46,994 nucleotides of DNA from a virus (IMGVR_UViG_3300001471_000004), one strand, 5' to 3'; shown: positions 939 through 46,994, counted from the first letter of the stretch. Notes: a model not told the origin generated them from the sequence alone. Program-made: numbers and translations.

Positions 939-945
939 GGTGCCC

Positions 946-2607
946 TCACTGCTGCAGGTAGCCGAGCACCTCATAGCGAAGGTGCAGCCGACCAATCTTG
1001 ATCCCCGACGCACAGACGCCCGTCGCGACGATTGCCATCCGGCGAAACACGATAGGAAAATGCCACTGGAGCGGGCGCGGGTAAAGAGCGTTCGCAACGC
1101 CTTGCCATAACGCCTGATCCCAAATAAACGCGCCCCACAAAGTAGCGGAGCCTGCGGGAACAACCGTCACCGTATCAAGCACCACGCCATTTTGATCTTG
1201 CGAGGTGACCGTGATCGTGTTGCCGGCAACTAGCGCCATATGAAGCGTCGTCTCGACCATCGCCACCTCGGCCATCTGATCGGTGTCAGGAAGCATCGGC
1301 GTCGCCCAATTGAAATTCATCGCGACGCCGTTCTCGACATATGTCGTGCTTGAGGACTGTGCCGTGTCACTTTGAAATAGTGCGGCCGTGCCTTGTAGCG
1401 CGACGATGAACGAGTTAGCATAGGCGGCCATCAACGAAGCGGCTTGCGTGTGAGGCCCGGACCAGATGGTGCGAACGAAGTCATACCACCACTGCTGCTG
1501 CGGATTACCCGACGCGCCGCCGTTCTGCAGCTGCACTCGATAGATGCCGTTGTTGTAAGCGGCGCACATGCGCGACGGTGTGAGCGCCGAGACGAATGGC
1601 GCGGCAATGCCATCGCCGTCTACGCCGATCGGGTCCCCTACGTTCGCGCCGAAATCAATGACACGCACGCCGTCCGGCGCGACAAAGGCCAAGCCCTTGG
1701 GCGTCGAGACAATTGTGTTAGCCGCGTACGTTCCGGTGCCAGGATTGAGCGCATTGAGCGACAAATTCTGCAACGCGTAGTCGCCAGTGATCTGGTAGAT
1801 ATTGGTGACGCCCTTGAACACCATCATCGACTGGAGGACGCCGCCAAGCTGGTTGTCGAGCGGCACACCCCCCGCGCCAGTCAAAGGAACGTTGTCGCCG
1901 AAAGTCAGTATCTGGTTCGCGTTCGTGATAATCGTCGGCGTCAGCGGGTCGGAGAAGTACGCGGCTGGCATCTGATTTGGTGGATTGACGAGGAAGTAGC
2001 AGCGACCGTTGAAATTAAAAACCCATGTCGGTGGGGCGATCAGCGTGTTGGTCGTCGTATTCTGCGCACTCCATGCCGGCGCCGCGGGGTTGGTGATATC
2101 GAGCACGCCAAAATAGGCGTTGCCCGCACCGGTAAAGCCAGGGTGCGAGAATATGATCGTCGAACCCACCAGCGCCATCGACGGTGGGCTCCAAGGGCCG
2201 GCAGTCTGCGGGCTGATTGGTGTGTTTACAGCCGTGACACCAGAAATCGCTGTATAGAGCCCGGTCAGGATGTTGTACGCAAAAGGCTCGTCGTGCCCTG
2301 GATTGCGGGAGGTAGAAACCATCCCGTAGACCCACGTTCCGTAGACGCGATAAACAGAGACGAACGTCGGACCGACGAAAAGATCGGGTCCGAACGCGCT
2401 AGAAAACGCCGCCGACCAGGGCCGATTGGCGCCAACAAAATTAGCTAATGAAATCGCTGCCGGGCGACACTGCCACAGATCCCGCGTAGTTGGGTCGGGG
2501 ATCAGGTTCGTCAGCGCGCCCATTGCACCTTTCGGCGCGGTCGAGCTATCGAGGGTGTCAGACGCGCCTCGTGGTGACCAGACCAGTGGTTTGCCCGGTA
2601 AGGCCAT
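946..2607 (-). CDS. Virion structural protein, 553 aa (possible tail nozzle/tubular-B-like; family not recognised)
   Basis: Dominant long ORF with the stop 8 nt upstream of the fibre ATG. Gly/Thr/Asn/Pro-rich, beta-type composition, located among tail genes. Confidence 0.6.
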   Translation of the reverse strand: MALPGKPLVWSPRGASDTLDSSTAPKGAMGALTNLIPDPTTRDLWQCRPAAISLANFVGANRPWSAAFSSAFGPDLFVGPTFVSVYRVYGTWVYGMVSTSRNPGHDEPFAYNILTGLYTAISGVTAVNTPISPQTAGPWSPPSMALVGSTIIFSHPGFTGAGNAYFGVLDITNPAAPAWSAQNTTTNTLIAPPTWVFNFNGRCYFLVNPPNQMPAAYFSDPLTPTIITNANQILTFGDNVPLTGAGGVPLDNQLGGVLQSMMVFKGVTNIYQITGDYALQNLSLNALNPGTGTYAANTIVSTPKGLAFVAPDGVRVIDFGANVGDPIGVDGDGIAAPFVSALTPSRMCAAYNNGIYRVQLQNGGASGNPQQQWWYDFVRTIWSGPHTQAASLMAAYANSFIVALQGTAALFQSDTAQSSSTTYVENGVAMNFNWATPMLPDTDQMAEVAMVETTLHMALVAGNTITVTSQDQNGVVLDTVTVVPAGSATLWGAFIWDQALWQGVANALYPRPLQWHFPIVFRRMAIVATGVCASGIKIGRLHLRYEVLGYLQQ

Positions 2608-2631
2608 CCACGAGGAACCTCTGCAACGAGG

Positions 2632-3546: not shown

Positions 3547-4020
3547 CTACGGATCGAGAATGGGGTTGAGCAGCGACAGGACCGATCCCTGTATCGGATT
3601 GGTGTCGAGCTTCAATTCGCTCGTCTTGATGTGCGGTATTGTTACCCCGCTCACCCCGTCGAGCGTCTTGTTCAGTTCGTCAGTGTAATCCTGCATTTTG
3701 GCGTTGGCAACGGCGTTCCCGTCGTCGGAGTATTTGTGGATAAGCGCCAGATTTGCGTGTTGAAACGCTTCGTCGACCGGCCGCAACGCCGTAATCGATT
3801 GACCAATCTGCACGCGCAAGCCGCCGCCGAGATCGTAAATCTGCACCGCCGTCTTTTCGATCTGGCCATCCTTGATGATCTTCTGATAGCCGTCGAGCAT
3901 CAGCAGACCTTGCAAAACCTGCCGCGCCTGCCGGATCGTCAGCGGCTGCGGCGGATCGGCCGCCAGCGCCTGGCTGATAGCCGCGATACAAAACAACCCG
4001 ATCAACAAAACCCGCGTCAT
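3547..4020 (-). CDS. Secreted/periplasmic protein of unknown function, 157 aa
   Basis: ATG at 4020 with GGGAG 6 nt upstream. Signal peptide MTRVLLIGLFCIAAISQALA/ADPP. The upstream 57 codons of the tracked ORF overlap the fibre gene end and lack an SD. Confidence 0.6.
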   Translation of the reverse strand: MTRVLLIGLFCIAAISQALAADPPQPLTIRQARQVLQGLLMLDGYQKIIKDGQIEKTAVQIYDLGGGLRVQIGQSITALRPVDEAFQHANLALIHKYSDDGNAVANAKMQDYTDELNKTLDGVSGVTIPHIKTSELKLDTNPIQGSVLSLLNPILDP

Positions 4021-4072: not shown

Positions 4073-5452
4073 TCAACATGCGGTAACGAGACCACCAACG
4101 ACGGTCGGTAACACCGCACAGGTCTTGGAGACGCCAGCCGTACCGCCGGATTTATACCCACCAACGACGTTAAGCGTCTGATCCTGCCCAAAAGTTGCCG
4201 CTAGCGTTTCCGTGATCGAACTATTAGGCGTTGTGTAAATTGCACACTGCGTACCCAACGCGCTACCGTGTGTCCAGTTTTGAGTGGCCGAGCAACGTAT
4301 TTCGCCCGTACCGACTACGTTAGCAGTTCCGTCGTAGCCGCCGATCAATTGCTGCATCAACAAATCCCCGCTCGCTACAGCGGTTGGAGAAGCTACTGTA
4401 CCGTGCGCCTCTACAAAAGTGACTGCTGGATTAGTAGCGCCGAAACCAAAGATCACTAGCCCGTACCCAGATGCCGAGCTTTCTACAATATCAAGCGCTC
4501 CTGCCGCCCCTGACAGAGTTGGAGCACCGCTTGTAGCTGTCCAGTTTATGATCGGCGTCGCAGCGACGGACAAACCCGTCCCCTGCAATTTCCCCGAAAT
4601 ATTAGTGAGCAACTCCGGCGCATTTCCACTGCCGATGTTGGTTGTACCTTCCGTGATTGTCGTAACGGACGCGGCCGCCCACGCCGGCAGACCTCCGCTA
4701 ACCGTGAGCACTTGAGCAGATAACCCGATCCCCAAACGTGTAAGTACACCACTTGAGTTGCGATAGTACGTATCGCCTGTAGCGTCCGACCCTAACGTCA
4801 TAGTGACGCCCGCAACAACGAAACCGGTGCTGGCCGTCCCTGCCGTAAGCGTACCGACCGTGGCGATGTCCGTCCCCACAAGCTTACTTGCCGCGATTGA
4901 ACCGGCGAGATCGGCATTCGTCACCAGACCCGTAGCCGTGAACGCGCTTGTCACCGTCAGCCCGGAAATTGAAGGCGACGTAGCAAGCACCACGCTACCC
5001 GAACCGGTAACGCCGTTGCTTAAATCCGAGGCCGCAGGCTGCGTCGACGACGGCACACCACTCGTCGATATCGCGTTGATCCACTGGTGAGATACCGCAG
5101 CGTACGACTGAATTCCACCCAGGGTACTTGCACTTGGGTTTGGCAGCTGCGCTGCGGCCACCGTGCCTGATATGTTGCTGAACGTCGGCTGCGCGCACGA
5201 AAGCGAGCTTAGCGTCGCAAAGCCGGTCACAAACTGATTTGTTGGACAGGCAAGCGACGAGCCACCATTAGCGTCGAGCCACGAGTTGACCATGTTCGTA
5301 AGCAGCGTAGTCATCGTCGCAGGCGTGATCGAGCCCGGCGTGCTCGTCAACGTCGCCGTGATCTGGGAAAGAAGCGCCGCTTTCGTATTTTGCGCGTGCA
5401 CCGGCGTCGCCAGGGCAACGAGAACCGCGACCAAAAGGGCGATGCGTTTCAT
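4073..5452 (-). CDS. Tail-fibre-like protein, 459 aa, with Sec-type N-terminus
   Basis: N-terminus MKRIALLVAVLVALATPVHA/QNTK. Ser/Thr/Gly/Ala-rich fibre-type repeats. The C-terminal Cys-containing knob (GVSKTCAVLPTVVGGLVTAC) resembles the C-terminus of the 11205-12440 product. Confidence 0.65.
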   Translation of the reverse strand: MKRIALLVAVLVALATPVHAQNTKAALLSQITATLTSTPGSITPATMTTLLTNMVNSWLDANGGSSLACPTNQFVTGFATLSSLSCAQPTFSNISGTVAAAQLPNPSASTLGGIQSYAAVSHQWINAISTSGVPSSTQPAASDLSNGVTGSGSVVLATSPSISGLTVTSAFTATGLVTNADLAGSIAASKLVGTDIATVGTLTAGTASTGFVVAGVTMTLGSDATGDTYYRNSSGVLTRLGIGLSAQVLTVSGGLPAWAAASVTTITEGTTNIGSGNAPELLTNISGKLQGTGLSVAATPIINWTATSGAPTLSGAAGALDIVESSASGYGLVIFGFGATNPAVTFVEAHGTVASPTAVASGDLLMQQLIGGYDGTANVVGTGEIRCSATQNWTHGSALGTQCAIYTTPNSSITETLAATFGQDQTLNVVGGYKSGGTAGVSKTCAVLPTVVGGLVTAC

Positions 5453-5453
5453 T

Positions 5454-6188
5454 TCACCACCCGATGTTCTTGGTGTTCTTCAACTGATCAAACGGCCGCC
5501 CCCACCGCCTGCGATCTTTACCTACCGTGTGTACCGCACCCTCTCGATCCTCGACGTTCTTCAGATACGCGTTTAGCAGCGTCCCCGCACCGAGCGGATA
5601 CCGCATCGGGTCGTCGCCAAGGTACTCGGCCTGTCGGCTGTCGCCGGTGATCCCCATCAAGCGGCCGGCGAGGCTACGTATCAAAATCTGCGTATTGAGA
5701 AACCACGGCACCGTCGTGCTTGTCTGCGGGCTGGCAATGTCGGGCATGAGTTTGTAATAGCGCAGCGTGCACGGATAGCCTCCACTTGCCGGGGGCCACA
5801 CAAACAGTTGCGCGGGTGACTGCGAGAGGTCGGTCGCGTAGTTGTACGGGTAGGAATTAAAACCCGGTGTCTGCACCAGCCAATCATACTCGGCCTTAGT
5901 GACCTGGATCAGGGGGTACGGCACACCTTGGATCGTGTAGAAAAACTCATCCTTGCCGTCCTTGACCTGCGTACGCAGATAGTCGGCCGGTAAAAGGTAC
6001 GGACCCGATCCGTTACCCGCCGCCGAATTGAACGAGAAGACGAAGGTGCCAAGCGCTGCGTCGAGATCGTAGTTCTGACAAAGATCCTGTAGCGTAGCGT
6101 TCAACAACTGCCCGGCCTGCAAAACCATACCGGGACACTTAGCTTCCTGCGTTGCGAGAGTGACAATCTGCTGTGCCTGAAGCCCCAT
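5454..6188 (-). CDS. Tail tubular-A/adaptor-like virion protein, 244 aa
   Basis: ATG at 6188 overlaps the upstream stop (ATGA). Its position and N-terminal pattern loosely resemble podovirus gp11-type proteins. This is a weak assignment. Confidence 0.45.
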   Translation of the reverse strand: MGLQAQQIVTLATQEAKCPGMVLQAGQLLNATLQDLCQNYDLDAALGTFVFSFNSAAGNGSGPYLLPADYLRTQVKDGKDEFFYTIQGVPYPLIQVTKAEYDWLVQTPGFNSYPYNYATDLSQSPAQLFVWPPASGGYPCTLRYYKLMPDIASPQTSTTVPWFLNTQILIRSLAGRLMGITGDSRQAEYLGDDPMRYPLGAGTLLNAYLKNVEDREGAVHTVGKDRRRWGRPFDQLKNTKNIGW

Positions 6189-11204: not shown

Positions 11205-12440
11205 TCATGAGCACGTACCACCCGTGCCTGTCGCGGCGGTAATAATGCCATTCGTGATTGTGATGCTAGCAATGACAGTAAGCGCACCAGAGCACGTCAC
11301 GCCCTTCGTTCCGTTCGCGTAGTACGCTGCGGCAGAATTAATTGTGCCTGCTCCTTCATTACCGCCTGTAGGGGCTCCTACCGCCAGACCGCCTGCAACT
11401 ACACTCCCTGTAGCCGTCCAGCTTTGCGATAAGGTTGAACCGGCTGCAATGCCCACCGTGTTTGTAGCAGGTAAGTACATTCCATTAGCGGGCACACTAG
11501 ACCCTGTCGGAAAGAAAGCGGTACATTTTAAATTCCCCGATCCTGTGGGTACTGAGCACACCGTACCCCCGCCGCTGTTCAAAAATATAAGATCAGAACT
11601 CGAACCCTTTCCCATCAAGGTTAGACCGTTAGCGCTCGCCAGATATACGGCACCTTCGCCATTGGCGCTCATAGTTGGGCCTGATATTATTCCGCCAAAG
11701 ACGTTGGTGCCAGCCGCCATTGTGGGCGCAGTCGTGCCCGTCACCGTAAAGAGCGCAGAGCCGGTATGGCCACCTGACGTAATCGTGCTGGCGTCCGGCA
11801 TTGTAACGGTGCCAGTGAAGGTCGGCGACGCAAGCGGCGCGTACGCAGTCGAGTTGAAAGCATTCGTACCAAGCGATCCGCCTACTCCCGATGACGTGAT
11901 TGCTGAACCACCACCAATGACAACGGAAGTAGCCGAAGCTGCGCCAAGGGTGGGCGTAACAAACGTGGGCGATGTTGTAGCAGATATTGCGCCGGAACCA
12001 TTAAGCGTAAGACCCAACGCCGTATTAACGTTAGTCCCTAGACTAGCAATCGCTACGTACGTAGCCGACAATGATGGGATATCGGCAGCCACAAGCGCAC
12101 GGAACGAGGGCGTGTTCGCGATGCCAGTCGTCGGCCCGGCGAACACCGTATTCGCAGTCTGGTTCTGGAGCGTCGCGCTGAGCGTGCCGGACACGGTCAC
12201 CGGCGATCCCGTCACAGCGAAAACTGATGCTGGCAATGAAAGCCCAACACTCGTTACGGTGCCCGCCCCGCTCCCATCAATACAAAAATTACCATTCACG
12301 TCGACAGTAAGTGGCTGCGTCGAACCGACAGGATACGCTTGTGGAAGCACTCCGCAAACCGCAACAACCAGCGCGTCTTGCGCGTGCGCAACGCCAAGCG
12401 ATGAGAACAATAAAGACAGCGCGATGAGGATCGCCCTCAT
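11205..12440 (-). CDS. Tail-fibre-like protein, 411 aa, with Sec-type N-terminus
   Basis: ATG at 12440 with an ATGA overlap. N-terminus MRAILIALSLLFSSLGVAHA/QD. Ser/Thr/Gly-rich repeats, with motif FAGPTTGIANTPSFRALVAADIPSL. C-terminal knob YYANGTKGVTCSG... Confidence 0.65.
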   Translation of the reverse strand: MRAILIALSLLFSSLGVAHAQDALVVAVCGVLPQAYPVGSTQPLTVDVNGNFCIDGSGAGTVTSVGLSLPASVFAVTGSPVTVSGTLSATLQNQTANTVFAGPTTGIANTPSFRALVAADIPSLSATYVAIASLGTNVNTALGLTLNGSGAISATTSPTFVTPTLGAASATSVVIGGGSAITSSGVGGSLGTNAFNSTAYAPLASPTFTGTVTMPDASTITSGGHTGSALFTVTGTTAPTMAAGTNVFGGIISGPTMSANGEGAVYLASANGLTLMGKGSSSDLIFLNSGGGTVCSVPTGSGNLKCTAFFPTGSSVPANGMYLPATNTVGIAAGSTLSQSWTATGSVVAGGLAVGAPTGGNEGAGTINSAAAYYANGTKGVTCSGALTVIASITITNGIITAATGTGGTCS

Positions 12441-12607
12441 GACAAGCACGCCTGGCCGCTGGTGTTGACCGTGATCGACCGCGTCGAGCCGACCGCGTAC
12501 GCGACAGGCAGCGTCCCGCACGTCGCCACGACGTAGGCACCCCCACCGTCAGCCTTGAGCGAAGTCGCCAAGCACACAAAAATCAGCGCTATAAAAAAGC
12601 GTGACAT
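12437..12607 (-). CDS. Small secreted protein, 56 aa; paralog of the N-terminal module of the downstream fibre
   Basis: ATG at 12607. Signal MSRFFIALIFVCLATSLKA/D. The mature part AYVVATCGTLPVAYAVGSTRSITVNTSGQAC aligns with ALVVAVCGVLPQAYPVGSTQPLTVDVNGNFC (18 of 31 identical, both Cys conserved). Confidence 0.55.
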   Translation of the reverse strand: MSRFFIALIFVCLATSLKADGGGAYVVATCGTLPVAYAVGSTRSITVNTSGQACLS

Positions 12608-14858: not shown

Positions 14859-16838
14859 TCACCGATGAGTTGCTCGCGCCGACAAGTACCGGCGTCCCTG
14901 CGCATCCGTAGCATAGTTCGGGGTGTCCTCGCCATCCCTGGCCAACGCCCCCGACGCCGCGGCAGCGAACGTCTCAAGGCCCTCCATGAGCACCCGGTAC
15001 ACGTTGTCGTCGGCCATGCCCTCGACACCTCCCCCCTTCACCACCTTGCGTGCATAGCCGCCCGCGAAGCCGTTGAGCGTCCAGCGCGCGACTGTGGATA
15101 TCTCCAGCTGCGGGCGCCCATGGGTCAAGCCCTCGATCCGCTTCCGTAGTTCCTCTCGCCCCGCCGCGACGTCACCGCCTGTCTTGATCGACGTCTGCAG
15201 CTTGCGCGCGGCCGGCTGAAGCCCGATCGGGTCATAGGCGTTCCAGTGCTGCGGGCCGGCATAGAGGGTGAAGCGCTGCCCGCACAGCAAGCGAGCCTCC
15301 GTCAGTATCCCGTCGAGCCCCGCCCCCGGATCGCCCTCACGCACCCAGTCACCAATCACCCTCACCTGATTGCCAAGGATCTGAACCGCTATGGCCGTGG
15401 TGAACTGCCGCGTCGCGCCGAGCACCAGATAGCACGCGCTGCCCTTCGTAAGCTTCATGCCGTCGACGACGTTATTCACAGAAAAATTCTCATAGACCGG
15501 CAGGCCCGGCCGCATCCGCAGCGCGTAGGCGAGTGCGTTCGGAACGTCAATCCTCCCGGTCGGAAAGCTCAGTAATTGCTGCATGAGCACTGGCAAGTCT
15601 TTCGCAAACACCACTTCGTCCGCTGCGAAGAAAGGCTGCAAAGAGCGGATGAAGGCCAGCTTGCCAACAGGCGCAGGCATTACTTCGACAGGGATAATCT
15701 GCTGCCGTCGCGTCTGTTCGGCCCGCAAAGGCTGCAAGATAAATTCTTCGAGCCCCTCCTTCTCCACCCCGATCTTGATCGGCTGGTACTGATCGTTGGT
15801 CGCGAACATGTCGTCGATGATCTTGTCGGGCATCCATAGCTGTCCGTCCCCTTCCCAGATGACGAGCTTCGTACCCACCCACGAGAACACCACCTTGCCC
15901 GTATGTGCGCTCGTCACCTTCACGCTGCGCGCCGGGTCATACATCGCGTATGTGGGCTGCCACGACTTCACCTGCGGCTCGACCTTGATCATCGCCGACG
16001 TGAACACGCGGGTGGATGGGTCGACAGCCTGCACCATGTACTCCTGCTGGTATTCGTTGAGCATCCCGGCTTCCTCGTACTCGTGCCGGGTCGTATCAAT
16101 ATGCTCTAAAGAAAATCGGGCCGGCCATATTGCTCGTCGCTGACCGTCAGCGCCAACGTATTCCCACGGGTACTCTCGCACAGTCCACACACCCGTTTTC
16201 CGCAGGCGCACGGCAAGGCAGTCAGGGTCAAGCATGTTGGCCAACATGCGCACCTTCGCTCCGGGCGCGAGGGCGGGCAACAAGGTCCGCATGAGCCATC
16301 GCTGGGTCTTGTCTCGTCCCTCGGGAGTGTTGACACTTTCCTCATCCTCGATGTCGTCGATCAGACAGCCGTCCGGCCGCACGTCGTTGTGTTTGACGCC
16401 GCGCATCGACTGCCCGCGGCCGAACGCCTGGATCACCACTCCGTTCATCAACTCGATCTTGTCTTCGTTCCACGTCTTGCCGTGAAGGCCGCCAAACAGG
16501 GTGTTGATGTGCTCGTTGAAATCGATTTCATGCTTTATAGCGCCTAGTCGTTCGACGGCTCGGGTAGCGCTCTCCCCGACAATAATGAAATTCTTGAAGC
16601 GCTGATAGCAAGCATCAATCGCAATGTATTCCTCGGCGATTGTTGATTTAGCTGCGCCGCGAAAGGCCAATTCGAGTACTCGGTGCGAGGGACCGTGAAG
16701 ATCGTCGATGATCTCGAAATGAAAAGGGGGTGTCGCATCGGGATGCCTGTGCGGGAACAGCGCTTGGTGCGCCAGACGGTGATCGAGGCCGAGACGTACG
16801 ATCAGGTCTTCCTTATCGCGCTCGGTCTGCGTAGTCAT
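14859..16838 (-). CDS. terL: Terminase large subunit, 659 aa
   Basis: Walker A-like FRGAAKST and Walker B-like GCLIDDIEDEE, followed by a nuclease-type C-terminal half. ATGA overlap with the upstream methyltransferase gene. Confidence 0.8.
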   Translation of the reverse strand: MTTQTERDKEDLIVRLGLDHRLAHQALFPHRHPDATPPFHFEIIDDLHGPSHRVLELAFRGAAKSTIAEEYIAIDACYQRFKNFIIVGESATRAVERLGAIKHEIDFNEHINTLFGGLHGKTWNEDKIELMNGVVIQAFGRGQSMRGVKHNDVRPDGCLIDDIEDEESVNTPEGRDKTQRWLMRTLLPALAPGAKVRMLANMLDPDCLAVRLRKTGVWTVREYPWEYVGADGQRRAIWPARFSLEHIDTTRHEYEEAGMLNEYQQEYMVQAVDPSTRVFTSAMIKVEPQVKSWQPTYAMYDPARSVKVTSAHTGKVVFSWVGTKLVIWEGDGQLWMPDKIIDDMFATNDQYQPIKIGVEKEGLEEFILQPLRAEQTRRQQIIPVEVMPAPVGKLAFIRSLQPFFAADEVVFAKDLPVLMQQLLSFPTGRIDVPNALAYALRMRPGLPVYENFSVNNVVDGMKLTKGSACYLVLGATRQFTTAIAVQILGNQVRVIGDWVREGDPGAGLDGILTEARLLCGQRFTLYAGPQHWNAYDPIGLQPAARKLQTSIKTGGDVAAGREELRKRIEGLTHGRPQLEISTVARWTLNGFAGGYARKVVKGGGVEGMADDNVYRVLMEGLETFAAAASGALARDGEDTPNYATDAQGRRYLSARATHR

Positions 16839-41581: not shown

Positions 41582-42814
41582 TTAAAAGTCCGCGCTGACT
41601 GTGATGGTGTTCGCGGCACCCGTGGCTGCGTAAAGCATCAAGTGCATAGTGCCCACGGCCGCAGTCTCGGATACAGCGCACGTCAGCTTGATCGAGTTAA
41701 GATTGCTCGAGCTGGCCACGGTCGCAAGCGTCGTACAGGCTTCGGCGGTGCCATCGGCAACTTTAGTCATGCCGAACGATGTGGCAGCCGCTACCGCGAC
41801 AACCGGTGTCTTAACCAACGTCGCCGGCAACATGAGCGTGCAAGCCGCCGTCGCACCCGACGAAGTTTCGGTGCAGGTGCCGGGCAACGTAAAGGTCGCC
41901 GCCGGGCTGTCGGCCCATTGCGCGTAAAAAGATTGCGCGACCCTGAGTTCATCAACAAAAGGTCGGAATTCAAACGCGGACGGTGCGTAACCCTGTTCCA
42001 GCTGCACGCCGGTAAACTCAAACCCATCGGTCGCGCCGGCCGTACCGCCCGTCGTCGGCGTCCAGCACAGAGCAACAGCAGCCTCGGTCGCGGTCGTTGG
42101 GATTGCGAAGCCGGTGCTCAGCCGCTGCCACGAAGAAGTCAGCGTGAACGCAGTCGTGTTCGTCGACGCAATCCCGGTCCATGCCGGCGTGATGGCGGGC
42201 GACGCGGTGAAGGACTGCAAGCCCTGATCGACGCCGGTGCCGGTGAACAGGTACGCGTTAAGCGTCGTCTGCTCGGCGAGCATCAGCGCCAGCCCCTTGG
42301 CGTAGAAACTCAACTCGACGTACGTGCCGGCGAGCGGCGTCAAGCGCGTCGTCGGGATTTCCTGCATCACACATTGCGGCTGCGCAAGCGCGCCGGAGGT
42401 GCGATAAAACAGCGATGCGGCGTTGAAAATCGGCGATGAAGGCAGGTCCGTCGTCTCGATCGAGAGCGTGCCGGCGCCGGACGTGACGTTGACATTGGCG
42501 CCCCACCGATCGGCGCTGTACGCCGAACTCGGGATTGTGGTTGTGCCGGCCGTTCGCGTACCGGTGCCGCGCTGCTGGACCTGCATCCCGCCGTTGTCGA
42601 GCACATTGCGTGGCGTGGTGTACGGCGCCATCGTCTGCGGCGTCACATACTGGTTGATGAGCTCGATCAGATGATTGACCGTCGCTAGGATATGCGAAGC
42701 GTCGGCAAACACCGGATTGGTGGACGGCAGGTAGGGCACGTTCTGCGCGCGCACCGCGGCCGTTCCGAGACCGAACACACACAACGCCGCAATGATGGAT
42801 CTGCGAAACCGCAT
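41582..42814 (-). CDS. Fibre/receptor-binding-like protein, 410 aa, with Sec-type N-terminus
   Basis: ATG 42814 with a GGGAGA SD. N-terminus MRFRRSIIAALCVFGLGTAAVRA/QN. Thr/Ala/Ser-rich beta-type sequence. Confidence 0.6.
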   Translation of the reverse strand: MRFRRSIIAALCVFGLGTAAVRAQNVPYLPSTNPVFADASHILATVNHLIELINQYVTPQTMAPYTTPRNVLDNGGMQVQQRGTGTRTAGTTTIPSSAYSADRWGANVNVTSGAGTLSIETTDLPSSPIFNAASLFYRTSGALAQPQCVMQEIPTTRLTPLAGTYVELSFYAKGLALMLAEQTTLNAYLFTGTGVDQGLQSFTASPAITPAWTGIASTNTTAFTLTSSWQRLSTGFAIPTTATEAAVALCWTPTTGGTAGATDGFEFTGVQLEQGYAPSAFEFRPFVDELRVAQSFYAQWADSPAATFTLPGTCTETSSGATAACTLMLPATLVKTPVVAVAAATSFGMTKVADGTAEACTTLATVASSSNLNSIKLTCAVSETAAVGTMHLMLYAATGAANTITVSADF

Positions 42815-42906
42815 GGTCGTATCTCCCAAAAAGGCGTCAAGCGCCGACCGAGCCTGCCGGAACCTACACTATATCCGGTGCCACTTCAACAGGCTGTTAC
42901 CCACAG

Positions 42907-44619
42907 CTAGTTGGCGTTTACGTTGTCCTTGTAGGCCAGGATTTGGACAAGGCCATTCGCCGCCCCGTTGATGCTGACATAGATCGTAGCTGTCTCCAAC
43001 TTCATCCACCCTGTTGCGGTGGTGACCGCCGTATTGAGCCCAAGCGGCGGCGGGTTTGGCGTTTCAAGGCTTTCGTACGTGTTATTCGGCGCCGCGCACG
43101 TTGCTGCCGCCGAAGCGGCGTCCGCCCCTACCAGGACGAGCTCGACATCGGTCGCGGTCGACGGCGCCCACAAAGGCGCCACCCCGGACGTACCCGCAAT
43201 CGTCTCTGCCGCCCATGTAGGTGTTGTCGACGTGGTTCCACAGCTGGTTCCACCATTCAAATGCTGCGCTACGACGGGGAGGGTCGAGAGGTTCGCCCCA
43301 CCGTTCACGTACTGGGTAACCGCACCCGTCGTGCGAAAACCGTAGAAGTTGGCCGATCCGTTCGTCTTGCTAGCACCAAGGCGGCACAAATAAATATACC
43401 CGCTCGGCATCGTCGGTGACGTCGCAGAGGCACTGTCAAGCCCGGCCGTCGTCGTGCCGTTGCTGATCAAGTAGTGATTGTACATCGTGTTGTTGCCGAG
43501 CGACACGGCATCGAGACCGTTGGCGCCGTTGATGGTGTCGTTGATCGCGACCGAGACACCGGTCACATAGATTGGCACGTTGCCGGTCGGATTGATGAGC
43601 ACCGCCGAACCGGCCGTGATGTCGATCTTGGTGTTCGGCGTACCCGTGTCGTTGTAGATCGCTAACCCAACCGCGCCGCACAGCGGCGTCGGGTTGACCA
43701 CTGCCGTGCCATTCGCGCGCATGTAGTTGGTGATCGCCCAATTGCCGAGCCCACCACTGCTCTTGCCGAGATAAACCGCAACGGCGGTGTCGCCCGCCGC
43801 AGCGGCGATATTAGCCGCCCCTGGCGTCTGGATGCAGCCACCAACCGTCGCGCAACTCGTCTGGTTCCAGGTGATCGTGAGCGGCGACGTGAACGTGACC
43901 TGATAGTTGGGGTACGTCGTCGTCGCCGTCTGACCGAAAGACGTGATCGTGGTCGAGCCAGTGATACTGACGTTGTGTGATGAGACGGTGCCCAGATCGG
44001 TGGTCGTCGCCGAAGCGAGATTAGTGAGTGGCCCGACACCGCCATATTGCACGCCCCCGCAATTCGTACACTCGAACTCGCTGCCATCCCATTGGGCAAT
44101 GACAATCTGGTTAGCCTGTATCTCGCCGCCAATCATCGGCACAGGCCCGTTCGGCCCGATATTATAAAAACTCGGCGGACAAGTCCCGGTCGAACACGCG
44201 GGGTTTGTGGTCGCGGTGACGGTCTGCGACGCAACTTCAAGCGTGGTCACACCTGTGTTCGTCAGCGACGCGACGAAGATCACTGTGTACCCGGTAACGA
44301 GCGTAAAACCCGTAGGCGCGGGCGAAGCGAAGGTGATTGCGTTGGCTGTGCCCGTCACCGCCCCGCCGAAGAACACGGATGATCCGCCCCCGGAAGGCGG
44401 GATTGGCGTCGTCAGGCCGAGCAGCGCCGTGATGTCGTTATTTGCGCCTGCTGCAGCCGCGTTGCCGAGACAGACAACCAGCGCGTTATAGTTCGCCATC
44501 ACCTGACTTGCGTCGGCGGTCGTGCCGTTCTGCAAATTAAAAGGCAAGCTGCAAGTAACGCCCGCCGAAGCCGCGGACACCCACAGCGAAAATATAAACC
44601 CAACAATCCAGCGCTTCAT
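42907..44619 (-). CDS. Tail-fibre-like protein, 570 aa, with Sec-type N-terminus
   Basis: ATG 44619 with a GAGGG SD. N-terminus MKRWIVGFIFSLWVSAASA/G. It carries the fibre-type motif ANNDITALLGLTTPIPPSGGG and a Cys-rich segment. Confidence 0.7.
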   Translation of the reverse strand: MKRWIVGFIFSLWVSAASAGVTCSLPFNLQNGTTADASQVMANYNALVVCLGNAAAAGANNDITALLGLTTPIPPSGGGSSVFFGGAVTGTANAITFASPAPTGFTLVTGYTVIFVASLTNTGVTTLEVASQTVTATTNPACSTGTCPPSFYNIGPNGPVPMIGGEIQANQIVIAQWDGSEFECTNCGGVQYGGVGPLTNLASATTTDLGTVSSHNVSITGSTTITSFGQTATTTYPNYQVTFTSPLTITWNQTSCATVGGCIQTPGAANIAAAAGDTAVAVYLGKSSGGLGNWAITNYMRANGTAVVNPTPLCGAVGLAIYNDTGTPNTKIDITAGSAVLINPTGNVPIYVTGVSVAINDTINGANGLDAVSLGNNTMYNHYLISNGTTTAGLDSASATSPTMPSGYIYLCRLGASKTNGSANFYGFRTTGAVTQYVNGGANLSTLPVVAQHLNGGTSCGTTSTTPTWAAETIAGTSGVAPLWAPSTATDVELVLVGADAASAAATCAAPNNTYESLETPNPPPLGLNTAVTTATGWMKLETATIYVSINGAANGLVQILAYKDNVNAN

Positions 44620-44626
44620 GGTGCCC

Positions 44627-46288
44627 TCACTGCTGCAGGTAGCCGAGCACCTCATAGCGAAGGTGCAGCCGACCAATCTTGATCCCCGACGCACAGACGC
44701 CCGTCGCGACGATTGCCATCCGGCGAAACACGATAGGAAAATGCCACTGGAGCGGGCGCGGGTAAAGAGCGTTCGCAACGCCTTGCCATAACGCCTGATC
44801 CCAAATAAACGCGCCCCACAAAGTAGCGGAGCCTGCGGGAACAACCGTCACCGTATCAAGCACCACGCCATTTTGATCTTGCGAGGTGACCGTGATCGTG
44901 TTGCCGGCAACTAGCGCCATATGAAGCGTCGTCTCGACCATCGCCACCTCGGCCATCTGATCGGTGTCAGGAAGCATCGGCGTCGCCCAATTGAAATTCA
45001 TCGCGACGCCGTTCTCGACATATGTCGTGCTTGAGGACTGTGCCGTGTCACTTTGAAATAGTGCGGCCGTGCCTTGTAGCGCGACGATGAACGAGTTAGC
45101 ATAGGCGGCCATCAACGAAGCGGCTTGCGTGTGAGGCCCGGACCAGATGGTGCGAACGAAGTCATACCACCACTGCTGCTGCGGATTACCCGACGCGCCG
45201 CCGTTCTGCAGCTGCACTCGATAGATGCCGTTGTTGTAAGCGGCGCACATGCGCGACGGTGTGAGCGCCGAGACGAATGGCGCGGCAATGCCATCGCCGT
45301 CTACGCCGATCGGGTCCCCTACGTTCGCGCCGAAATCAATGACACGCACGCCGTCCGGCGCGACAAAGGCCAAGCCCTTGGGCGTCGAGACAATTGTGTT
45401 AGCCGCGTACGTTCCGGTGCCAGGATTGAGCGCATTGAGCGACAAATTCTGCAACGCGTAGTCGCCAGTGATCTGGTAGATATTGGTGACGCCCTTGAAC
45501 ACCATCATCGACTGGAGGACGCCGCCAAGCTGGTTGTCGAGCGGCACACCCCCCGCGCCAGTCAAAGGAACGTTGTCGCCGAAAGTCAGTATCTGGTTCG
45601 CGTTCGTGATAATCGTCGGCGTCAGCGGGTCGGAGAAGTACGCGGCTGGCATCTGATTTGGTGGATTGACGAGGAAGTAGCAGCGACCGTTGAAATTAAA
45701 AACCCATGTCGGTGGGGCGATCAGCGTGTTGGTCGTCGTATTCTGCGCACTCCATGCCGGCGCCGCGGGGTTGGTGATATCGAGCACGCCAAAATAGGCG
45801 TTGCCCGCACCGGTAAAGCCAGGGTGCGAGAATATGATCGTCGAACCCACCAGCGCCATCGACGGTGGGCTCCAAGGGCCGGCAGTCTGCGGGCTGATTG
45901 GTGTGTTTACAGCCGTGACACCAGAAATCGCTGTATAGAGCCCGGTCAGGATGTTGTACGCAAAAGGCTCGTCGTGCCCTGGATTGCGGGAGGTAGAAAC
46001 CATCCCGTAGACCCACGTTCCGTAGACGCGATAAACAGAGACGAACGTCGGACCGACGAAAAGATCGGGTCCGAACGCGCTAGAAAACGCCGCCGACCAG
46101 GGCCGATTGGCGCCAACAAAATTAGCTAATGAAATCGCTGCCGGGCGACACTGCCACAGATCCCGCGTAGTTGGGTCGGGGATCAGGTTCGTCAGCGCGC
46201 CCATTGCACCTTTCGGCGCGGTCGAGCTATCGAGGGTGTCAGACGCGCCTCGTGGTGACCAGACCAGTGGTTTGCCCGGTAAGGCCAT
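44627..46288 (-). CDS. Virion structural protein, 553 aa (same gene as 946-2607)
   Basis: Translation identical to 946-2607. Confidence 0.6.
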   Translation of the reverse strand: MALPGKPLVWSPRGASDTLDSSTAPKGAMGALTNLIPDPTTRDLWQCRPAAISLANFVGANRPWSAAFSSAFGPDLFVGPTFVSVYRVYGTWVYGMVSTSRNPGHDEPFAYNILTGLYTAISGVTAVNTPISPQTAGPWSPPSMALVGSTIIFSHPGFTGAGNAYFGVLDITNPAAPAWSAQNTTTNTLIAPPTWVFNFNGRCYFLVNPPNQMPAAYFSDPLTPTIITNANQILTFGDNVPLTGAGGVPLDNQLGGVLQSMMVFKGVTNIYQITGDYALQNLSLNALNPGTGTYAANTIVSTPKGLAFVAPDGVRVIDFGANVGDPIGVDGDGIAAPFVSALTPSRMCAAYNNGIYRVQLQNGGASGNPQQQWWYDFVRTIWSGPHTQAASLMAAYANSFIVALQGTAALFQSDTAQSSSTTYVENGVAMNFNWATPMLPDTDQMAEVAMVETTLHMALVAGNTITVTSQDQNGVVLDTVTVVPAGSATLWGAFIWDQALWQGVANALYPRPLQWHFPIVFRRMAIVATGVCASGIKIGRLHLRYEVLGYLQQ

Positions 46289-46312
46289 CCACGAGGAACC
46301 TCTGCAACGAGG

Positions 46313-46994
46313 TTAGAACTTGTATTCGAGCGATGCGCGTACGAGGTTCTCGGCGTTGAAGCTCGCGGTCGCCGCGTTCGCCACGCCGACTGACGCCGAA
46401 CCATAGTTCAGGTAACGATACCCGATGTCGAGAATGATCTTCGGCGCGATGACGAACTTCGCACCAGCCCCTGTCTCGAAGCCCGTGGCGAAGCCGCGCT
46501 CGACGATGCCGGCCGCGACATAGAGGGATATCAGGTCGGCCGTCAGGTTGCTCGGCACGACAACCGGCGCCTGCGTGCCGAAGATGCCGGACAGCGTCCC
46601 GCCGACCTGCGCCTCCTGGTAAGCGAGCACACCGCCTTCGTTGTTCGTCACCCCGCCCACGTTGACCTGGTCGCCAACGCCGGCCTCGATCGCGAGGAAC
46701 GTGGTGCCGTTCCAATACTGCCAACCCCCGTTGACGAAGGGGATCGCGCCGGCCGCGAAGACGGAACCGGATAGCCCGCTGCCGATGATGTCGGCGTTCG
46801 TGCCGTTGCCCGCGAAGCCACCGCCGACATACCAGCCAGTGCAGTAGACCGTCGTGCACCCCGAAGTCGCGGAGGGCGGCGTCTTGGTCACCACCTGCGC
46901 GCTGGCCGGCGTAATCGCGGCCAGCAGCCATGACAGCGCAACGGCGAGGAACAGAAGCTGCGCGACGTTGCCCACACTGCCGTCACGGTGATAG
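46313..46994 (-). CDS. Omp25/Omp31-like beta-barrel ORF, 5'-truncated by the window end (same gene as 2632-3537)
   Basis: Identical to 2632-3313. The internal GTG at 46975 corresponds to 3294. Confidence 0.6.
   Translation of the reverse strand, partial: YHRDGSVGNVAQLLFLAVALSWLLAAITPASAQVVTKTPPSATSGCTTVYCTGWYVGGGFAGNGTNADIIGSGLSGSVFAAGAIPFVNGGWQYWNGTTFLAIEAGVGDQVNVGGVTNNEGGVLAYQEAQVGGTLSGIFGTQAPVVVPSNLTADLISLYVAAGIVERGFATGFETGAGAKFVIAPKIILDIGYRYLNYGSASVGVANAATASFNAENLVRASLEYKF

What the first reader, a model, noticed from the sequence alone, without database searches (positions are those of the whole stretch)
41582..44619. All four fibre-like proteins carry Sec-type signal peptides
Seen in the sequence: each large Ser/Thr/Gly-rich fibre-like ORF starts with a positively charged n-region, a hydrophobic core of 12-16 residues, and an AxA-type site.
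- MKRWIVGFIFSLWVSAASA/G (42907-44619)
- MRFRRSIIAALCVFGLGTAAVRA/Q (41582-42814)
- MKRIALLVAVLVALATPVHA/Q (4073-5452)
- MRAILIALSLLFSSLGVAHA/Q (11205-12440)
Several also have conserved Cys pairs.

Established knowledge: tailed-phage virions assemble in the cytoplasm, and tail fibres normally lack cleavable export signals. Cys pairs that form disulfides are typical of exported proteins.

Inference: there are three possibilities. The N-termini may be uncleaved hydrophobic anchors used for attachment to the tail. The proteins may be exported and act outside the virion as decoys or cell-surface modifiers. Or assembly may involve an unusual step. Four paralogous receptor-binding candidates also imply a multi-receptor or broad-host adsorption apparatus.
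Basis: partly seen in the sequence, partly recalled or inferred. Interest (0 to 1): 0.62.

Follow-up and report, generated by a model that had tools for sequence, protein, structure and literature searches.

The report
Phage tail fibres carrying export signals
A complete 43.7-kb genome of an uncultured short-tailed soil phage, like hundreds of its relatives, puts ordinary-looking bacterial secretion signals and paired cysteines on all of its tail-fibre-type proteins, which suggests the fibres mature in the periplasm, away from the cytoplasm where phage particles are built.

Summary
All four fibre-like ORFs begin with a charged n-region, an 11-15-residue hydrophobic core and an AxA site, at well-supported start codons.

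It is not chance. My rule-based scan found such N-termini on 0 of 577 core proteins in 80 related phage loci, but on 87 of 133 large non-core proteins.

These look like cleavable Sec signals, not structural anchors:
- In 70 homologues of the 570-aa fibre, only positions -3 and -1 are conserved inside the signal. Conservation jumps from 0.49 to 0.86 at the predicted cut.
- Mature parts carry 6, 6, 6 and 12 cysteines, and cysteine pairs appear and disappear together.
- Signal-bearing proteins are 134 even to 20 odd in cysteine count. Core proteins are 142 to 213.
- Signal-less orthologues at the same locus lack the first cysteine pair.

They are also real fibre-type proteins by fold, by swapped tail-collar domains and by position after the adaptor and the nozzle-like gene. 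In 18 relatives the adaptor is fused in frame, through the signal, to the fibre.

The four are not paralogues. Export and virion membership are inferred, not shown. This scan has noted the same phenomenon on other phage genomes.

The parts
42907..44619 (-). F570: 570-aa fibre. It has a signal peptide (residues 1-19), a conserved N-module (residues 20 to about 190, with the C23-C50 pair) and variable beta-sandwich distal domains. It lies directly after the nozzle-like gene.
   Evidence: Translation. 271 homologues, with all 120 listed carrying signals. AF2 pLDDT 86.8. Fold match to the Pseudomonas phage PPpW-3 tail-collar fibre, E 2e-16. Cys pairs covary.
44563..44619 (-). Signal peptide of F570, MKRWIVGFIFSLWVSAASA, with the predicted cut after ASA.
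   Evidence: In 70 homologues A17 is 0.94 conserved, A19 0.97 and S18 0.14. The hydrophobic-core positions score 0.23-0.79, and the first 30 mature residues average 0.86.
41582..42814 (-). F410: 410-aa protein. It has a signal peptide (1-23), a short conserved N-module with a helix (residues 39-54) and two CBM-like jelly-roll domains. It is a candidate glycan-binding receptor-binding protein.
   Evidence: phrog_4492 'tail fiber protein', E 3.9e-18. 10 of 10 relatives from a direct search plus 6 in the capsid-protein (MCP) loci carry signals. AF2 pLDDT 69 and PDB fold hits to CBM22/CBM4/CBM16, CBA120 TSP4 and the phi812 baseplate.
42746..42814 (-). Signal peptide of F410, MRFRRSIIAALCVFGLGTAAVRA, with the predicted cut after VRA.
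4073..5452 (-). F459: 459-aa fibre encoded immediately after the adaptor. It has a signal peptide (1-20), a conserved N-module and widespread fibre modules (residues 63-140).
   Evidence: In 18 relatives its homologue is fused in frame to the adaptor through the signal.
5393..5452 (-). Signal peptide of F459, MKRIALLVAVLVALATPVHA, with the predicted cut after VHA.
11205..12440 (-). F411: 411-aa fibre-like protein between the portal and endolysin genes. It has a signal peptide (1-20). Residues 52-206 match a fibre module also found in phiRSL1, Motura and Cr-LKS3 fibres, and the phiRSL1 and Cr-LKS3 fibres were checked and have no signal.
12381..12440 (-). Signal peptide of F411, MRAILIALSLLFSSLGVAHA, with the predicted cut after AHA.
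12437..12607 (-). 56-aa signal-bearing mini-protein whose mature part duplicates the N-module of F411 (2 Cys).
   Evidence: blastp gives 44% identity over 50 aa, E 7e-9.
3547..4020 (-). 157-aa signal-bearing protein directly after F459, with no Cys. It sits where a fibre-assembly chaperone gene often lies. That role is an inference only.
   Evidence: No Pfam or PHROG hit.
5454..6188 (-). Adaptor protein (SU10_adaptor family). Its conserved C-terminal end, ...KNTKNIGW-stop, lies 1 nt before the F459 start codon.
   Evidence: PF24175, 32.3 bits against a cut-off of 27. The likely true start is the ATG at 6188. C-terminal motif in 53 loci.
946..2607 (-). 553-aa conserved tail protein between the adaptor block and F570. 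It is nozzle-like by position and size only.
   Evidence: Conserved in 47 loci at a median 52% identity. No signal. No PDB, Pfam or PHROG hit even with a profile.

Best explanation
The four ORFs are genuine tail-fibre-type proteins of a short-tailed phage. They belong to three different N-terminal docking-module families, plus one fibre in a hot spot next to the portal gene. Each is made with a real, cleavable Sec signal peptide.

Proposed mechanism:
1. The host Sec system exports the unfolded chains. This is inferred.
2. Signal peptidase I cuts after the AxA site. The site is shown to be conserved, but cleavage itself is inferred.
3. The chains fold, and probably oligomerise, in the periplasm, where their paired cysteines form disulfides. 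The pairing pattern is shown, but the bonds are inferred.
4. The finished fibres meet DNA-filled, fibre-less particles only when holin and endolysin break the barrier between cytoplasm and periplasm at lysis. They then dock through their conserved N-modules on the adaptor (F459) and on the nozzle-like protein (F570, F410). This is inferred. It is physically plausible because P22 tailspikes join tailspike-less particles spontaneously in vitro (own knowledge).

In some relatives the adaptor and the fibre are one polypeptide, joined by the signal. Signal peptidase would split this into a cytoplasmic adaptor and a periplasmic fibre. This is inferred.

Confidence by step: about 0.8 that the signals drive export, and about 0.4 for the whole chain including virion incorporation after export.
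For: (1) The signal features are not chance. My rule fires on 0 of 577 core proteins and on 87 of 133 large non-core ORFs in 80 related loci.

(2) The signals look cleavable rather than structural. All 120 listed homologues of the F570 N-module have signals that differ in sequence and length. Only -3 (0.94) and -1 (0.97) are conserved, and the mature start GVxC[ST]LPF is nearly invariant. F410 and F459 show the same picture.

(3) The disulfide signature is clear:
- Mature Cys counts are 12, 6, 6 and 6.
- Signal-bearing proteins are 134 even to 20 odd, against 142 to 213 for core proteins, Fisher p 2e-24.
- An independent set of 118 proteins sharing the F459 module gives 37:6 with a signal and 32:33 without.
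- Cys pairs are gained and lost together: (23,50) in 70 of 70, (142,147) 10 both and 0 single, (256,262) 13 both and 0 single.

(4) Signal and first Cys pair go together. Among 146 N-module representatives the counts are: signal+pair 105, signal only 14, neither 25, pair only 2. Both of the last look like mis-called starts.

(5) The proteins are fibres:
- The F570 model matches the Pseudomonas phage PPpW-3 tail-collar fibre (E 2e-16), the Rhizobium phage Palo tail fibre and T7-fibre-type proteins.
- Homologues swap in PF07484 tail-collar domains.
- F410 hits phrog_4492 and folds as tandem CBM-like domains.
- F411 and F459 share modules with annotated fibres; the phiRSL1 and Cr-LKS3 fibres sharing the F411 module were checked and have no signal.

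(6) There are links to the virion:
- Gene order matches SU10, where the adaptor docks the fibre encoded next to it and the nozzle docks short fibres (PMC9509320).
- Signal-less F570 orthologues occupy the same slot in L057, L060 and L074.
- 18 proteins fuse the adaptor end ...NTKxIGW directly to a 10-20-residue hydrophobic core, P..AxA and the fibre N-module.

(7) No conserved alternative start would give a signal-less isoform. The V21 codon is GTG in 7, GTT in 4, GTC in 3, GTA in 2 and ATH in 3.
Against: - There is no experiment of any kind. The phage family is uncultured, and no homologue exists in 50,697 GenBank phage records or in the PDB.
- No trained signal-peptide predictor was run.
- After correcting for relatedness, the link between signal and Cys pair rests on few events. 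Of 6 well-supported contrasts, about 4 go the same way, 0 the opposite way and 2 show no change, for a sign-test p of 0.125.
- 14 signal-bearing N-modules lack the first Cys pair.
- Disulfides could also form after release into air, so even Cys numbers do not strictly require periplasmic folding.
- Joining after lysis costs dilution and has no described precedent in vivo for tailed phages.
- In the fused relatives, cleavage would leave a hydrophobic tail on all twelve adaptor subunits, and this needs a further unproven step.
- The nozzle identity of the 553-aa protein rests on position only.
- Earlier notes of this scan say later checks priced the equivalent bold reading on other genomes at about 10%.
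Confidence: 0.4

Rival explanations
1. The proteins are exported but are not part of the virion. They would act in the periplasm or at the cell surface, for example by masking receptors, excluding superinfecting phages, binding envelope glycans to help lysis or release, or acting as decoys. The particle would adsorb through its nozzle or tip alone.
For: - The signals and disulfide signature show export but say nothing about virion incorporation.
- Textbook assembly of tailed phages is cytoplasmic.
- The slot after the portal gene, where F411 lies, holds highly variable cargo-like genes with up to 17 Cys in relatives.
- F410 is lectin-like.
- Phage-encoded envelope proteins such as Llp, Cor, Lom and Bor are known (own knowledge).
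Against: - The window genome has no signal-less fibre-like gene, so the particle would have no fibres at all.
- The N-modules are under strong purifying selection while the distal parts swap, which is the pattern of parts that dock on a conserved partner.
- Signal-less orthologues sit in the same slot in close relatives.
- The fibre is repeatedly fused to the adaptor, a core virion protein.
- The folds match bona fide fibres.
Confidence: 0.25
2. Dual localisation. Export is deliberately partial or slow. A cytoplasmic pool of precursor, or a fraction never targeted to Sec, is built into particles in the usual way, while the exported pool has a second role or is a by-product.
For: - By parsimony the signal has been gained or lost at least 21 times on the N-module tree while the module itself stays conserved. 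This is easiest if both states feed the same assembly site.
- 14 signal-bearing variants lack the first Cys pair.
Against: - An uncleaved signal on a docking N-terminus would probably hinder docking.
- The cysteines would stay reduced in the cytoplasmic pool, yet they are conserved as pairs.
- There is no conserved internal start for a signal-less isoform.
- The hydrophobic cores are strong, not marginal.
Confidence: 0.15
3. There is no export. The hydrophobic N-terminus is an uncleaved structural element, such as an anchor in the tail, a trimerisation helix or a membrane-active segment used during infection. The cysteines oxidise only after release.
For: - In the fused relatives the hydrophobic segment is internal, about 245 residues from the N-terminus, and links two virion proteins.
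- Some adaptors (L018/L019, L053) carry only a hydrophobic C-terminal extension of about 20-25 residues.
Against: - The segment is not conserved in sequence or length. Only the -3 and -1 small residues, a proline in the c-region and a basic n-region are kept, and this holds in the fused forms too.
- AF2 gives it low confidence and packs it against nothing.
- Signal-less orthologues function without it.
- The cores are 10-20 residues long and mostly 11-15 (F570 11; F459 12; F410 and F411 15), which fits signal peptides better than the roughly 20 residues expected of a membrane-spanning helix.
Confidence: 0.1
4. The finding is an annotation artefact. The true starts would lie downstream of the hydrophobic stretch.
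For: None found. High-GC genomes do offer many alternative GTG and TTG codons.
Against: - Shine-Dalgarno sites or translational coupling are present at the proposed ATGs.
- There are no Met codons near the cut sites.
- The hydrophobic segment is kept in frame in hundreds of homologues.
- The codon after the F570 cut site is not a conserved start codon.
Confidence: 0.02

Closest known systems
Podovirus tail fibres docked on adaptor and nozzle (SU10 gp12/gp13 long fibres and gp16 short fibres; T7 gp17)
   Same: - The gene order is the same: an adaptor (PF24175 SU10_adaptor), then a fibre, a nozzle-sized conserved protein, then more fibres.
- The fibres have a conserved N-terminal module and a variable distal part.
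- The F570 fold matches T7-fibre-type and tail-collar fibres.
- In SU10 the adaptor docks the first 90 residues of the fibre encoded next to it (PMC9509320).
   Different: - SU10 and T7 fibres have no signal peptide and assemble in the cytoplasm.
- There is no sequence-level match of any of the four proteins to any PDB chain.
- The fibres here carry conserved disulfide-type Cys pairs.
Classical Gram-negative Sec signal peptides cut by signal peptidase I (von Heijne -3/-1 rule)
   Same: - The n-region is basic, the hydrophobic core is 11-15 residues long, and there is often a Pro in the c-region.
- The -3 and -1 positions are small (A 0.94 and 0.97) and -2 is variable.
- The mature proteins have an even number of Cys.
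- There is no lipobox and no conserved twin-arginine motif.
   Different: They sit on proteins that by fold and gene position are tailed-phage fibres, and I know of no described tailed-phage fibre with such a signal. In relatives the same signal is internal, directly after a 245-residue cytoplasmic virion protein.
P22 tailspike addition to tailspike-less particles in vitro (own knowledge: Israel, Anderson and Levine 1967)
   Same: It shows that the last step of podovirus assembly, adding the receptor-binding organelle, can happen spontaneously outside an intact cytoplasm.
   Different: In P22 the step normally happens in the cytoplasm, and the tailspike has no export signal.
Polyproteins split by host signal peptidase at an internal signal: flavivirus/hepacivirus capsid-signal-envelope junctions, and Bradyrhizobium japonicum FbcH, the cytochrome b-c1 precursor (own knowledge; FbcH lead from note e1-1001766)
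   Same: The adaptor-signal-fibre fusions in 18 relatives have the same layout. A cytoplasmic structural protein is followed by an internal signal with an AxA site and then an exported protein.
   Different: - This applies to relatives only. The window genome has separate genes.
- Cleavage is not shown.
- I know of no phage example.
Virion proteins of filamentous phages (pIII, pVIII) and phage-encoded envelope proteins (T5 Llp, Cor, lambda Lom/Bor, Rz1)
   Same: These are phage proteins with Sec signals that use the host's export and, for pIII, its disulfide machinery (own knowledge).
   Different: Filamentous phages assemble at the membrane and have no capsid or tail. The envelope proteins are not fibre-like and are not virion parts.
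Signal peptides reported on Porphyromonas gingivalis phage proteins (Matrishin et al. 2023, PMC10367356)
   Same: It is a published survey noting Sec signals on phage-encoded proteins, including an N-terminal Gln after the cut.
   Different: There the signals are on capsid proteins, spanins and proteins of unknown function. Tail fibres are not mentioned.

Membership tests
Sec-type (SPase I) signal peptide | Net positive n-region at the extreme N-terminus | tested here: met
   The n-regions are MKR, MRFRR, MKR and MR. K2 is conserved at 0.83 in 70 F570 homologues.
Sec-type (SPase I) signal peptide | Uncharged hydrophobic core of about 7-15 residues, shorter than a membrane-spanning helix | tested here: met
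   The cores are 11, 15, 12 and 15 residues. Relatives have variable sequences and lengths of 10-20.
Sec-type (SPase I) signal peptide | Small neutral residues at -3 and -1 with a variable -2 | tested here: met
   The sites are ASA, VRA, VHA and AHA. In the F570 family -3 A is 0.94, -1 A is 0.97 and -2 is 0.14. Across the loci -1 is A in 136 of 171 and -3 is A or V in 134 of 171.
Sec-type (SPase I) signal peptide | Not a lipoprotein (lipobox) and not a Tat (twin-arginine) signal | tested here: met
   There is no L-x-x-C lipobox at the cut. The RR in F410 is not conserved in its 12 aligned homologues.
Sec-type (SPase I) signal peptide | Positive call by a trained predictor (SignalP, DeepTMHMM) | not testable with these tools
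   No such predictor was available, so I used my own rule-based scan only.
Sec-type (SPase I) signal peptide | Actual export and cleavage in the host | not testable with these tools
   The phage is uncultured, the host is unknown, and there are no proteomic data.
Disulfide-bonded exported proteins (even-cysteine rule, Dutton et al. 2008, own knowledge) | Even number of Cys in the mature part, in contrast to cytoplasmic proteins of the same genomes | tested here: met
   The four fibres have 12, 6, 6 and 6. Signal-bearing proteins are 134 even to 20 odd against 142:213 for core proteins. A second set gives 37:6 against 32:33.
Disulfide-bonded exported proteins (even-cysteine rule, Dutton et al. 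2008, own knowledge) | Cys partners gained and lost together | tested here: met
   In the F570 alignment five pairs are never split, and one is split in 7 of 26 occurrences.
Disulfide-bonded exported proteins (even-cysteine rule, Dutton et al. 2008, own knowledge) | Loss of the signal goes with loss of the Cys pair, after correcting for relatedness | tested here: inconclusive
   The raw table is 105/14/2/25, Fisher p 4e-16. Only 6 contrasts are supported: about 4 go the same way, 0 the opposite way and 2 show no change, p 0.125.
Tailed-phage tail fibre / receptor-binding protein | Fold or domain shared with characterised or annotated fibres | tested here: met
   F570: BFVD hits to the PPpW-3 tail-collar fibre (E 2e-16) and the Palo tail fibre, and a local PDB hit to the Pa193 fibre 9b45. 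PF07484 occurs in homologues. F410: phrog_4492. F411 shares a module with annotated fibres of phiRSL1, Motura and Cr-LKS3; F459's only matches in GenBank phage records are two short stretches in hypothetical proteins.
Tailed-phage tail fibre / receptor-binding protein | Conserved N-terminal docking module with exchangeable distal domains | tested here: met
   F570 residues 20-190 are conserved in 660 representatives while the C-terminal halves differ. F410 and F459 show the same pattern.
Tailed-phage tail fibre / receptor-binding protein | Gene located in the tail module next to its docking partner | tested here: met
   F459 lies 1 nt after the adaptor stop, and F570 lies 7 nt after the 553-aa tail protein. 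Signal-bearing ORFs cluster in three slots: after g553 (39), after the portal (32) and after the adaptor (28).
Tailed-phage tail fibre / receptor-binding protein | Physical presence in the virion; homotrimer | not testable with these tools
   There are no virion proteomics or structures for this family, and only monomer models were made.
SU10-type adaptor-docked long tail fibre (gp12-like) | Adaptor of the SU10/T7 type with a fibre dock | tested here: met
   PF24175 SU10_adaptor, E 1.8e-7, 32.3 bits against a cut-off of 27. The dock domain itself was not examined.
SU10-type adaptor-docked long tail fibre (gp12-like) | Sequence similarity of the fibre to SU10 gp12 or T7 gp17 | tested here: not met
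   F459 matches no PDB chain at E up to 1. It is therefore not filed as a gp12 homologue, only as occupying the same position.

The most novel reading that the evidence does not exclude
In this large family of uncultured soil podoviruses the whole host-recognition apparatus is exported through Sec, cut by host signal peptidase and disulfide-bonded in the periplasm. It is added to fibre-less, DNA-filled particles only after the holin opens the inner membrane, which would be a two-compartment assembly line for a tailed phage. In some members the adaptor and its fibre are made as one polyprotein that the host signal peptidase splits across the membrane, the same logic as the capsid-signal-envelope junction of flaviviruses.
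Probability: 0.35. Interest if true: 0.85.

Novelty: new variant of a known kind. Interest (0 to 1): 0.68.

Why it matters
Tailed-phage particles are held to be assembled wholly in the cytoplasm. If the receptor-binding fibres of a widespread soil phage group mature in the periplasm, several things follow:
- Assembly would have a step after the inner membrane opens.
- Fibres could use the host's disulfide machinery, which would suit harsh soil conditions.
- Lysis timing and fibre attachment would be coupled.
- Genome annotation pipelines that treat a signal peptide as evidence against a structural role would mislabel receptor-binding proteins.

It also matters for engineering. Such fibres would probably need periplasmic expression to fold.

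The adaptor-signal-fibre fusions offer a simple test object. One construct reports export, cleavage and the fate of both halves.

Tried and rejected
- **Start-codon artefact:** rejected.
- **Paralogy of the four fibres:** rejected. No pair reaches significance; only the 56-aa ORF matches the F411 N-module.
- **Lipoprotein or Tat signals:** rejected.
- **Bacteroidetes 'Q rule':** Gln is the commonest +1 residue (61 of 171) but far from universal, and the F570 and F410 families use G/N and A. I did not take this as a host clue.
- **Cultured relatives with virion data:** none found.
  - tblastn of the capsid protein and all four fibres against 50,697 phage records gave only distant or module-level hits.
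  - The PDB sequence searches found nothing for the four fibres or for the 553-aa protein, the latter searched both alone and as a 26-sequence profile.
- **Host assignment:** the capsid gene occurs only on whole-phage contigs binned into MAGs of discordant taxa, including Terracidiphilus, Phenylobacterium, Acetobacteraceae and Thermoanaerobaculia. One fusion protein is labelled Bradyrhizobium sp. MAG. The host remains unknown.
- **Full-length PDB fold search of F570:** uninformative because the model has many domains. The viral library was informative.
- **Pfam and PHROG on the small signal-bearing proteins and neighbouring genes:** nothing found.
- **Literature:** four full-text searches found no paper describing Sec signals on tailed-phage fibres.

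Full report
**What the window is.** Bases 1-3313 are identical to 43682-46994. The window is therefore a circular or circularly permuted 43,681-bp genome read past its origin.

It encodes a DNA polymerase, a helicase and a primase-helicase on the plus strand. A long late operon lies on the minus strand. Its genes, in order:
- large terminase (14859-16838) and portal (12618-14852);
- a 56-aa ORF, then F411;
- a GH108 endolysin;
- a scaffold-like protein and the HK97-type major capsid protein (7755-9095);
- small head-tail proteins;
- an SU10-type adaptor (PF24175, 32.3 bits against a cut-off of 27), then F459;
- a 157-aa ORF and a holin-barrel fusion;
- a conserved 553-aa tail protein, then F570 and F410;
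- a GNAT and low-complexity internal proteins.

No cultured phage is close. The best capsid-protein match among 50,697 GenBank phage records is 28% identity. In IMG/VR the capsid protein finds 173 relatives at 67-85% identity on contigs of 41.9-46.8 kb. No whole host genome is held.

**The observation.** Each proposed ATG has a Shine-Dalgarno site or is translationally coupled to the gene before it. The predicted cuts are ASA|G, VRA|Q, VHA|Q and AHA|Q.

I could not run SignalP, so I wrote a simple rule. It requires a net positive n-region, an uncharged hydrophobic core of 8 or more residues, and small residues at -3 and -1.
- Across all ORFs of the genome it ranks the four fibres at or near the top among coding-strand ORFs. 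Three more late proteins rank with them: the 56-aa ORF, the 157-aa ORF and an internal signal in the barrel fusion.
- On greedy gene calls in 80 related loci it fires on 0 of 577 core proteins (capsid, portal, terminase, adaptor, 553-aa protein, scaffold and others).
- It fires on 87 of 133 non-core ORFs of at least 300 aa.

The feature is real, specific to the fibre-like genes, and shared by the family.

**Signal or structural anchor?** A search with residues 1-200 of F570 found 271 proteins. All 120 listed begin with a signal-like segment that differs in sequence and length, followed by a nearly invariant mature start, [GNT]VxC[ST]LPFNLxNGTTADAxQVMANYNAL..C.

In a 70-sequence alignment the mean majority-residue fraction is 0.49 within the signal and 0.86 in the first 30 mature residues. 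Within the signal only M1, K2, A17 (-3, 0.94) and A19 (-1, 0.97) stand out, and -2 is 0.14. That is the -3/-1 rule, with the conservation boundary exactly at the predicted cut.

Relatives of F410 fetched directly carry signals in 10 of 10 cases, again with conservation starting at ANIPL just after the cut. F459 relatives behave the same way.

AF2 gives the segment low confidence and packs it against nothing.

A conserved downstream start that could make a signal-less isoform is excluded for F570. The codon after the cut is GTG in 7, GTT in 4, GTC in 3, GTA in 2 and ATH in 3 loci.

I conclude that these are cleavable Sec-type signals, not uncleaved anchors.

**Cysteines.**
- The mature parts have 12, 6, 6 and 6 Cys in near-neighbour pairs.
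- In the related loci, signal-bearing proteins with Cys are even in 134 cases and odd in 20. Core proteins are 142 even and 213 odd, Fisher p 2e-24. Some of the odd cases are my rule placing the cut one Cys too late, as it did for F570.
- An independent sample of 118 proteins sharing the residue 63-140 module of F459 gives 37 even to 6 odd, none Cys-free, when a signal is present. It gives 32:33, with 10 Cys-free, when a signal is absent.
- In the F570 alignment Cys partners appear and vanish together. Pair (23,50) is present in 70 of 70. Pairs (142,147), (184,187), (256,262) and (460,508) are never split. Pair (314,412) is split in 7 of 26 occurrences.

This is the pattern of structural disulfides, which in Gram-negative cells are made in the periplasm (own knowledge).

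**Signal-less orthologues.** In L056/L057, L060 and L074 the gene directly after the 553-aa protein encodes the same N-module without a signal (MTTIIGTLPF..., MGLVVTLPF..., MSIIGSLPS...). It lacks the C23-C50 pair and has only 1-3 Cys in all.

A scan of 1.8 billion representatives with mature residues 20-200 found 660 relatives. Among 146 that I could classify, the counts are: signal plus pair 105, signal only 14, neither 25, pair only 2. The last two look like truncated signals. The raw association is strong, Fisher p 4e-16.

On a quick tree, however, only 6 well-supported independent contrasts exist. In about 4 of them the Cys pair changes in the same direction, in 0 the opposite, and in 2 it does not change, for p 0.125. 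The correlation is therefore suggestive and not proven.

The same tree needs at least 21 changes of signal state. The signal is thus an evolutionarily labile addition to an otherwise conserved fibre module.

**Are they fibres?**
- **F570.** The model (pLDDT 86.8) consists of a low-confidence N-terminal helix region followed by beta-sandwich domains. In the viral structure library it matches the tail-collar fibre of the P2-like Pseudomonas phage PPpW-3 (E 2e-16, rmsd 3.9 over 271 columns). It also matches the Rhizobium phage Palo tail fibre and T7-fibre-type proteins. The PPpW-3 protein has an ordinary signal-less fibre N-terminus. Many F570 homologues carry PF07484, the phage tail collar domain, instead of the window's distal part.
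- **F410.** It hits phrog_4492 'tail fiber protein' (E 3.9e-18). Its model (pLDDT 69) is two jelly-roll domains similar to carbohydrate-binding modules, CBA120 TSP4 and a phi812 baseplate protein.
- **F411.** It shares internal modules with annotated fibres of cultured phages; those checked (phiRSL1 and Cr-LKS3) lack signals.
- **F459.** Its residue 63-140 module recurs in more than 100 metagenomic proteins, some with and some without signals. Its only matches in GenBank phage records are two short stretches in hypothetical proteins.

The four are not paralogues of one another.

**Links to the particle.** In SU10 the adaptor ring docks the long fibre encoded by the next gene, and the nozzle docks the short fibres (PMC9509320). 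The window has the same order.

The adaptor's conserved end...NTKxIGW-stop, is followed within a few bases by a signal-bearing fibre gene in many relatives, and by the 553-aa gene in others. In L007, L009, L013/L015, L058 and L065 there is no stop. The adaptor runs in frame into a hydrophobic core, P..AxA and the conserved fibre N-module.

A search with the L009 fusion found 18 such proteins of 440-1131 aa. In the 17 where the NTKxIGW junction could be located, the layout is the same and the core sequences differ. Both fibre N-module subtypes (NCTAPCTK... and QKTKAAL...) occur fused and unfused, so fusion or fission happened more than once.

In the fusions the basic adaptor tail replaces the Met-Lys-Arg n-region, while the c-region proline and AxA are kept. 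The simplest reading is an internal signal that sends the fibre half across the membrane and is cut there. This resembles B. japonicum FbcH or viral capsid-signal-envelope junctions (own knowledge).

It also ties the signal-bearing fibre to a core virion protein.

**Mechanism and its weak points.** My best reading has three steps: Sec export, cleavage and disulfide-assisted folding in the periplasm, then docking onto fibre-less particles once the holin and endolysin remove the barrier. P22 tailspikes join particles spontaneously in vitro. Cells lacking spanins stay as outer-membrane-bounded spheres after holin action, so a mixing phase exists (both own knowledge).

The weak points are these:
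- Nothing is shown experimentally.
- No trained predictor was run.
- The 553-aa protein is called nozzle-like only from its position.
- The fusions would leave a hydrophobic tail on the adaptor, which needs removal or tolerance.
- Post-release oxidation could explain paired cysteines without periplasmic folding.

The main rival is export for a role outside the virion. It fits the signals equally well, but it would leave this phage with no fibres. It also does not explain the conserved docking-type N-modules, the signal-less orthologues in the same slot or the adaptor fusions.

**Prior notes and literature.** Earlier notes of this scan describe the same phenomenon on at least eight other phage genomes. 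According to those notes, later checks kept the observation but priced the bold reading near 10%. None concerns this phage family. The adaptor fusions were not among the notes I found.

Four full-text literature searches found no description of Sec signals on tailed-phage fibres. It reports signals on capsid, spanin and unknown proteins.

Noticed in passing
L018:13503-13600, L019:13503-13600, L053:11411-11500: In these relatives the adaptor does not stop at ...IGW. It carries a hydrophobic C-terminal extension of about 20-25 residues with no fibre behind it (for example MVLTGWMVQAMFEHLIGGMLWTIWS). This may be a remnant of a former adaptor-signal-fibre fusion.
   Followed up: no
window 3547-4020 (-): This 157-aa signal-bearing, Cys-free protein lies directly after the F459 fibre, where fibre-assembly chaperone genes often lie. 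If the fibre folds in the periplasm, it could be its periplasmic chaperone. It has no Pfam or PHROG hit.
   Followed up: partly
window 5454-6347 (-): The longest adaptor ORF starts at the GTG at 6347. Homologues and a Shine-Dalgarno-like GGTGGA instead point to the ATG at 6188 (MGLQAQQIV...), which gives a 244-aa adaptor that no longer overlaps the upstream gene.
   Followed up: partly
80 related loci (L001-L080), predicted cut sites: Gln is the commonest residue after the predicted cut (61 of 171), including three of the four window fibres. An N-terminal Gln can cyclise to pyroglutamate and would protect the mature end. It is not universal enough to be read as the Bacteroidetes Q rule.
   Followed up: partly
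L019:6208-9091, L047:1464-6717, L080:586-6678, L058:2-4029: The slot next to the portal gene, where F411 sits in the window, is a hot spot. It holds one to three highly variable signal-bearing proteins of up to 1,006 aa with up to 17 cysteines.
   Followed up: no
window 10083-10376 (-): This 97-aa ORF next to the endolysin has one N-terminal hydrophobic helix (MPLVVAVLGYFLSTTLS) and a coiled-coil-like tail. It is a candidate holin, antiholin or inner-membrane spanin-like lysis protein. It has no family hit.
   Followed up: no
L102-L108 (genome contigs): Whole-phage contigs of this family are binned into MAGs of discordant taxa (Terracidiphilus, Phenylobacterium, Acetobacteraceae, Thermoanaerobaculia, Vulcanimicrobiota, Chakrabartia). 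These bin labels are therefore unreliable as host evidence.
   Followed up: partly
window 41582-42814 (-): F410 folds as two tandem jelly-roll domains like carbohydrate-binding modules (CBM22, CBM4, CBM16), which points to a glycan receptor such as LPS or exopolysaccharide.
   Followed up: partly
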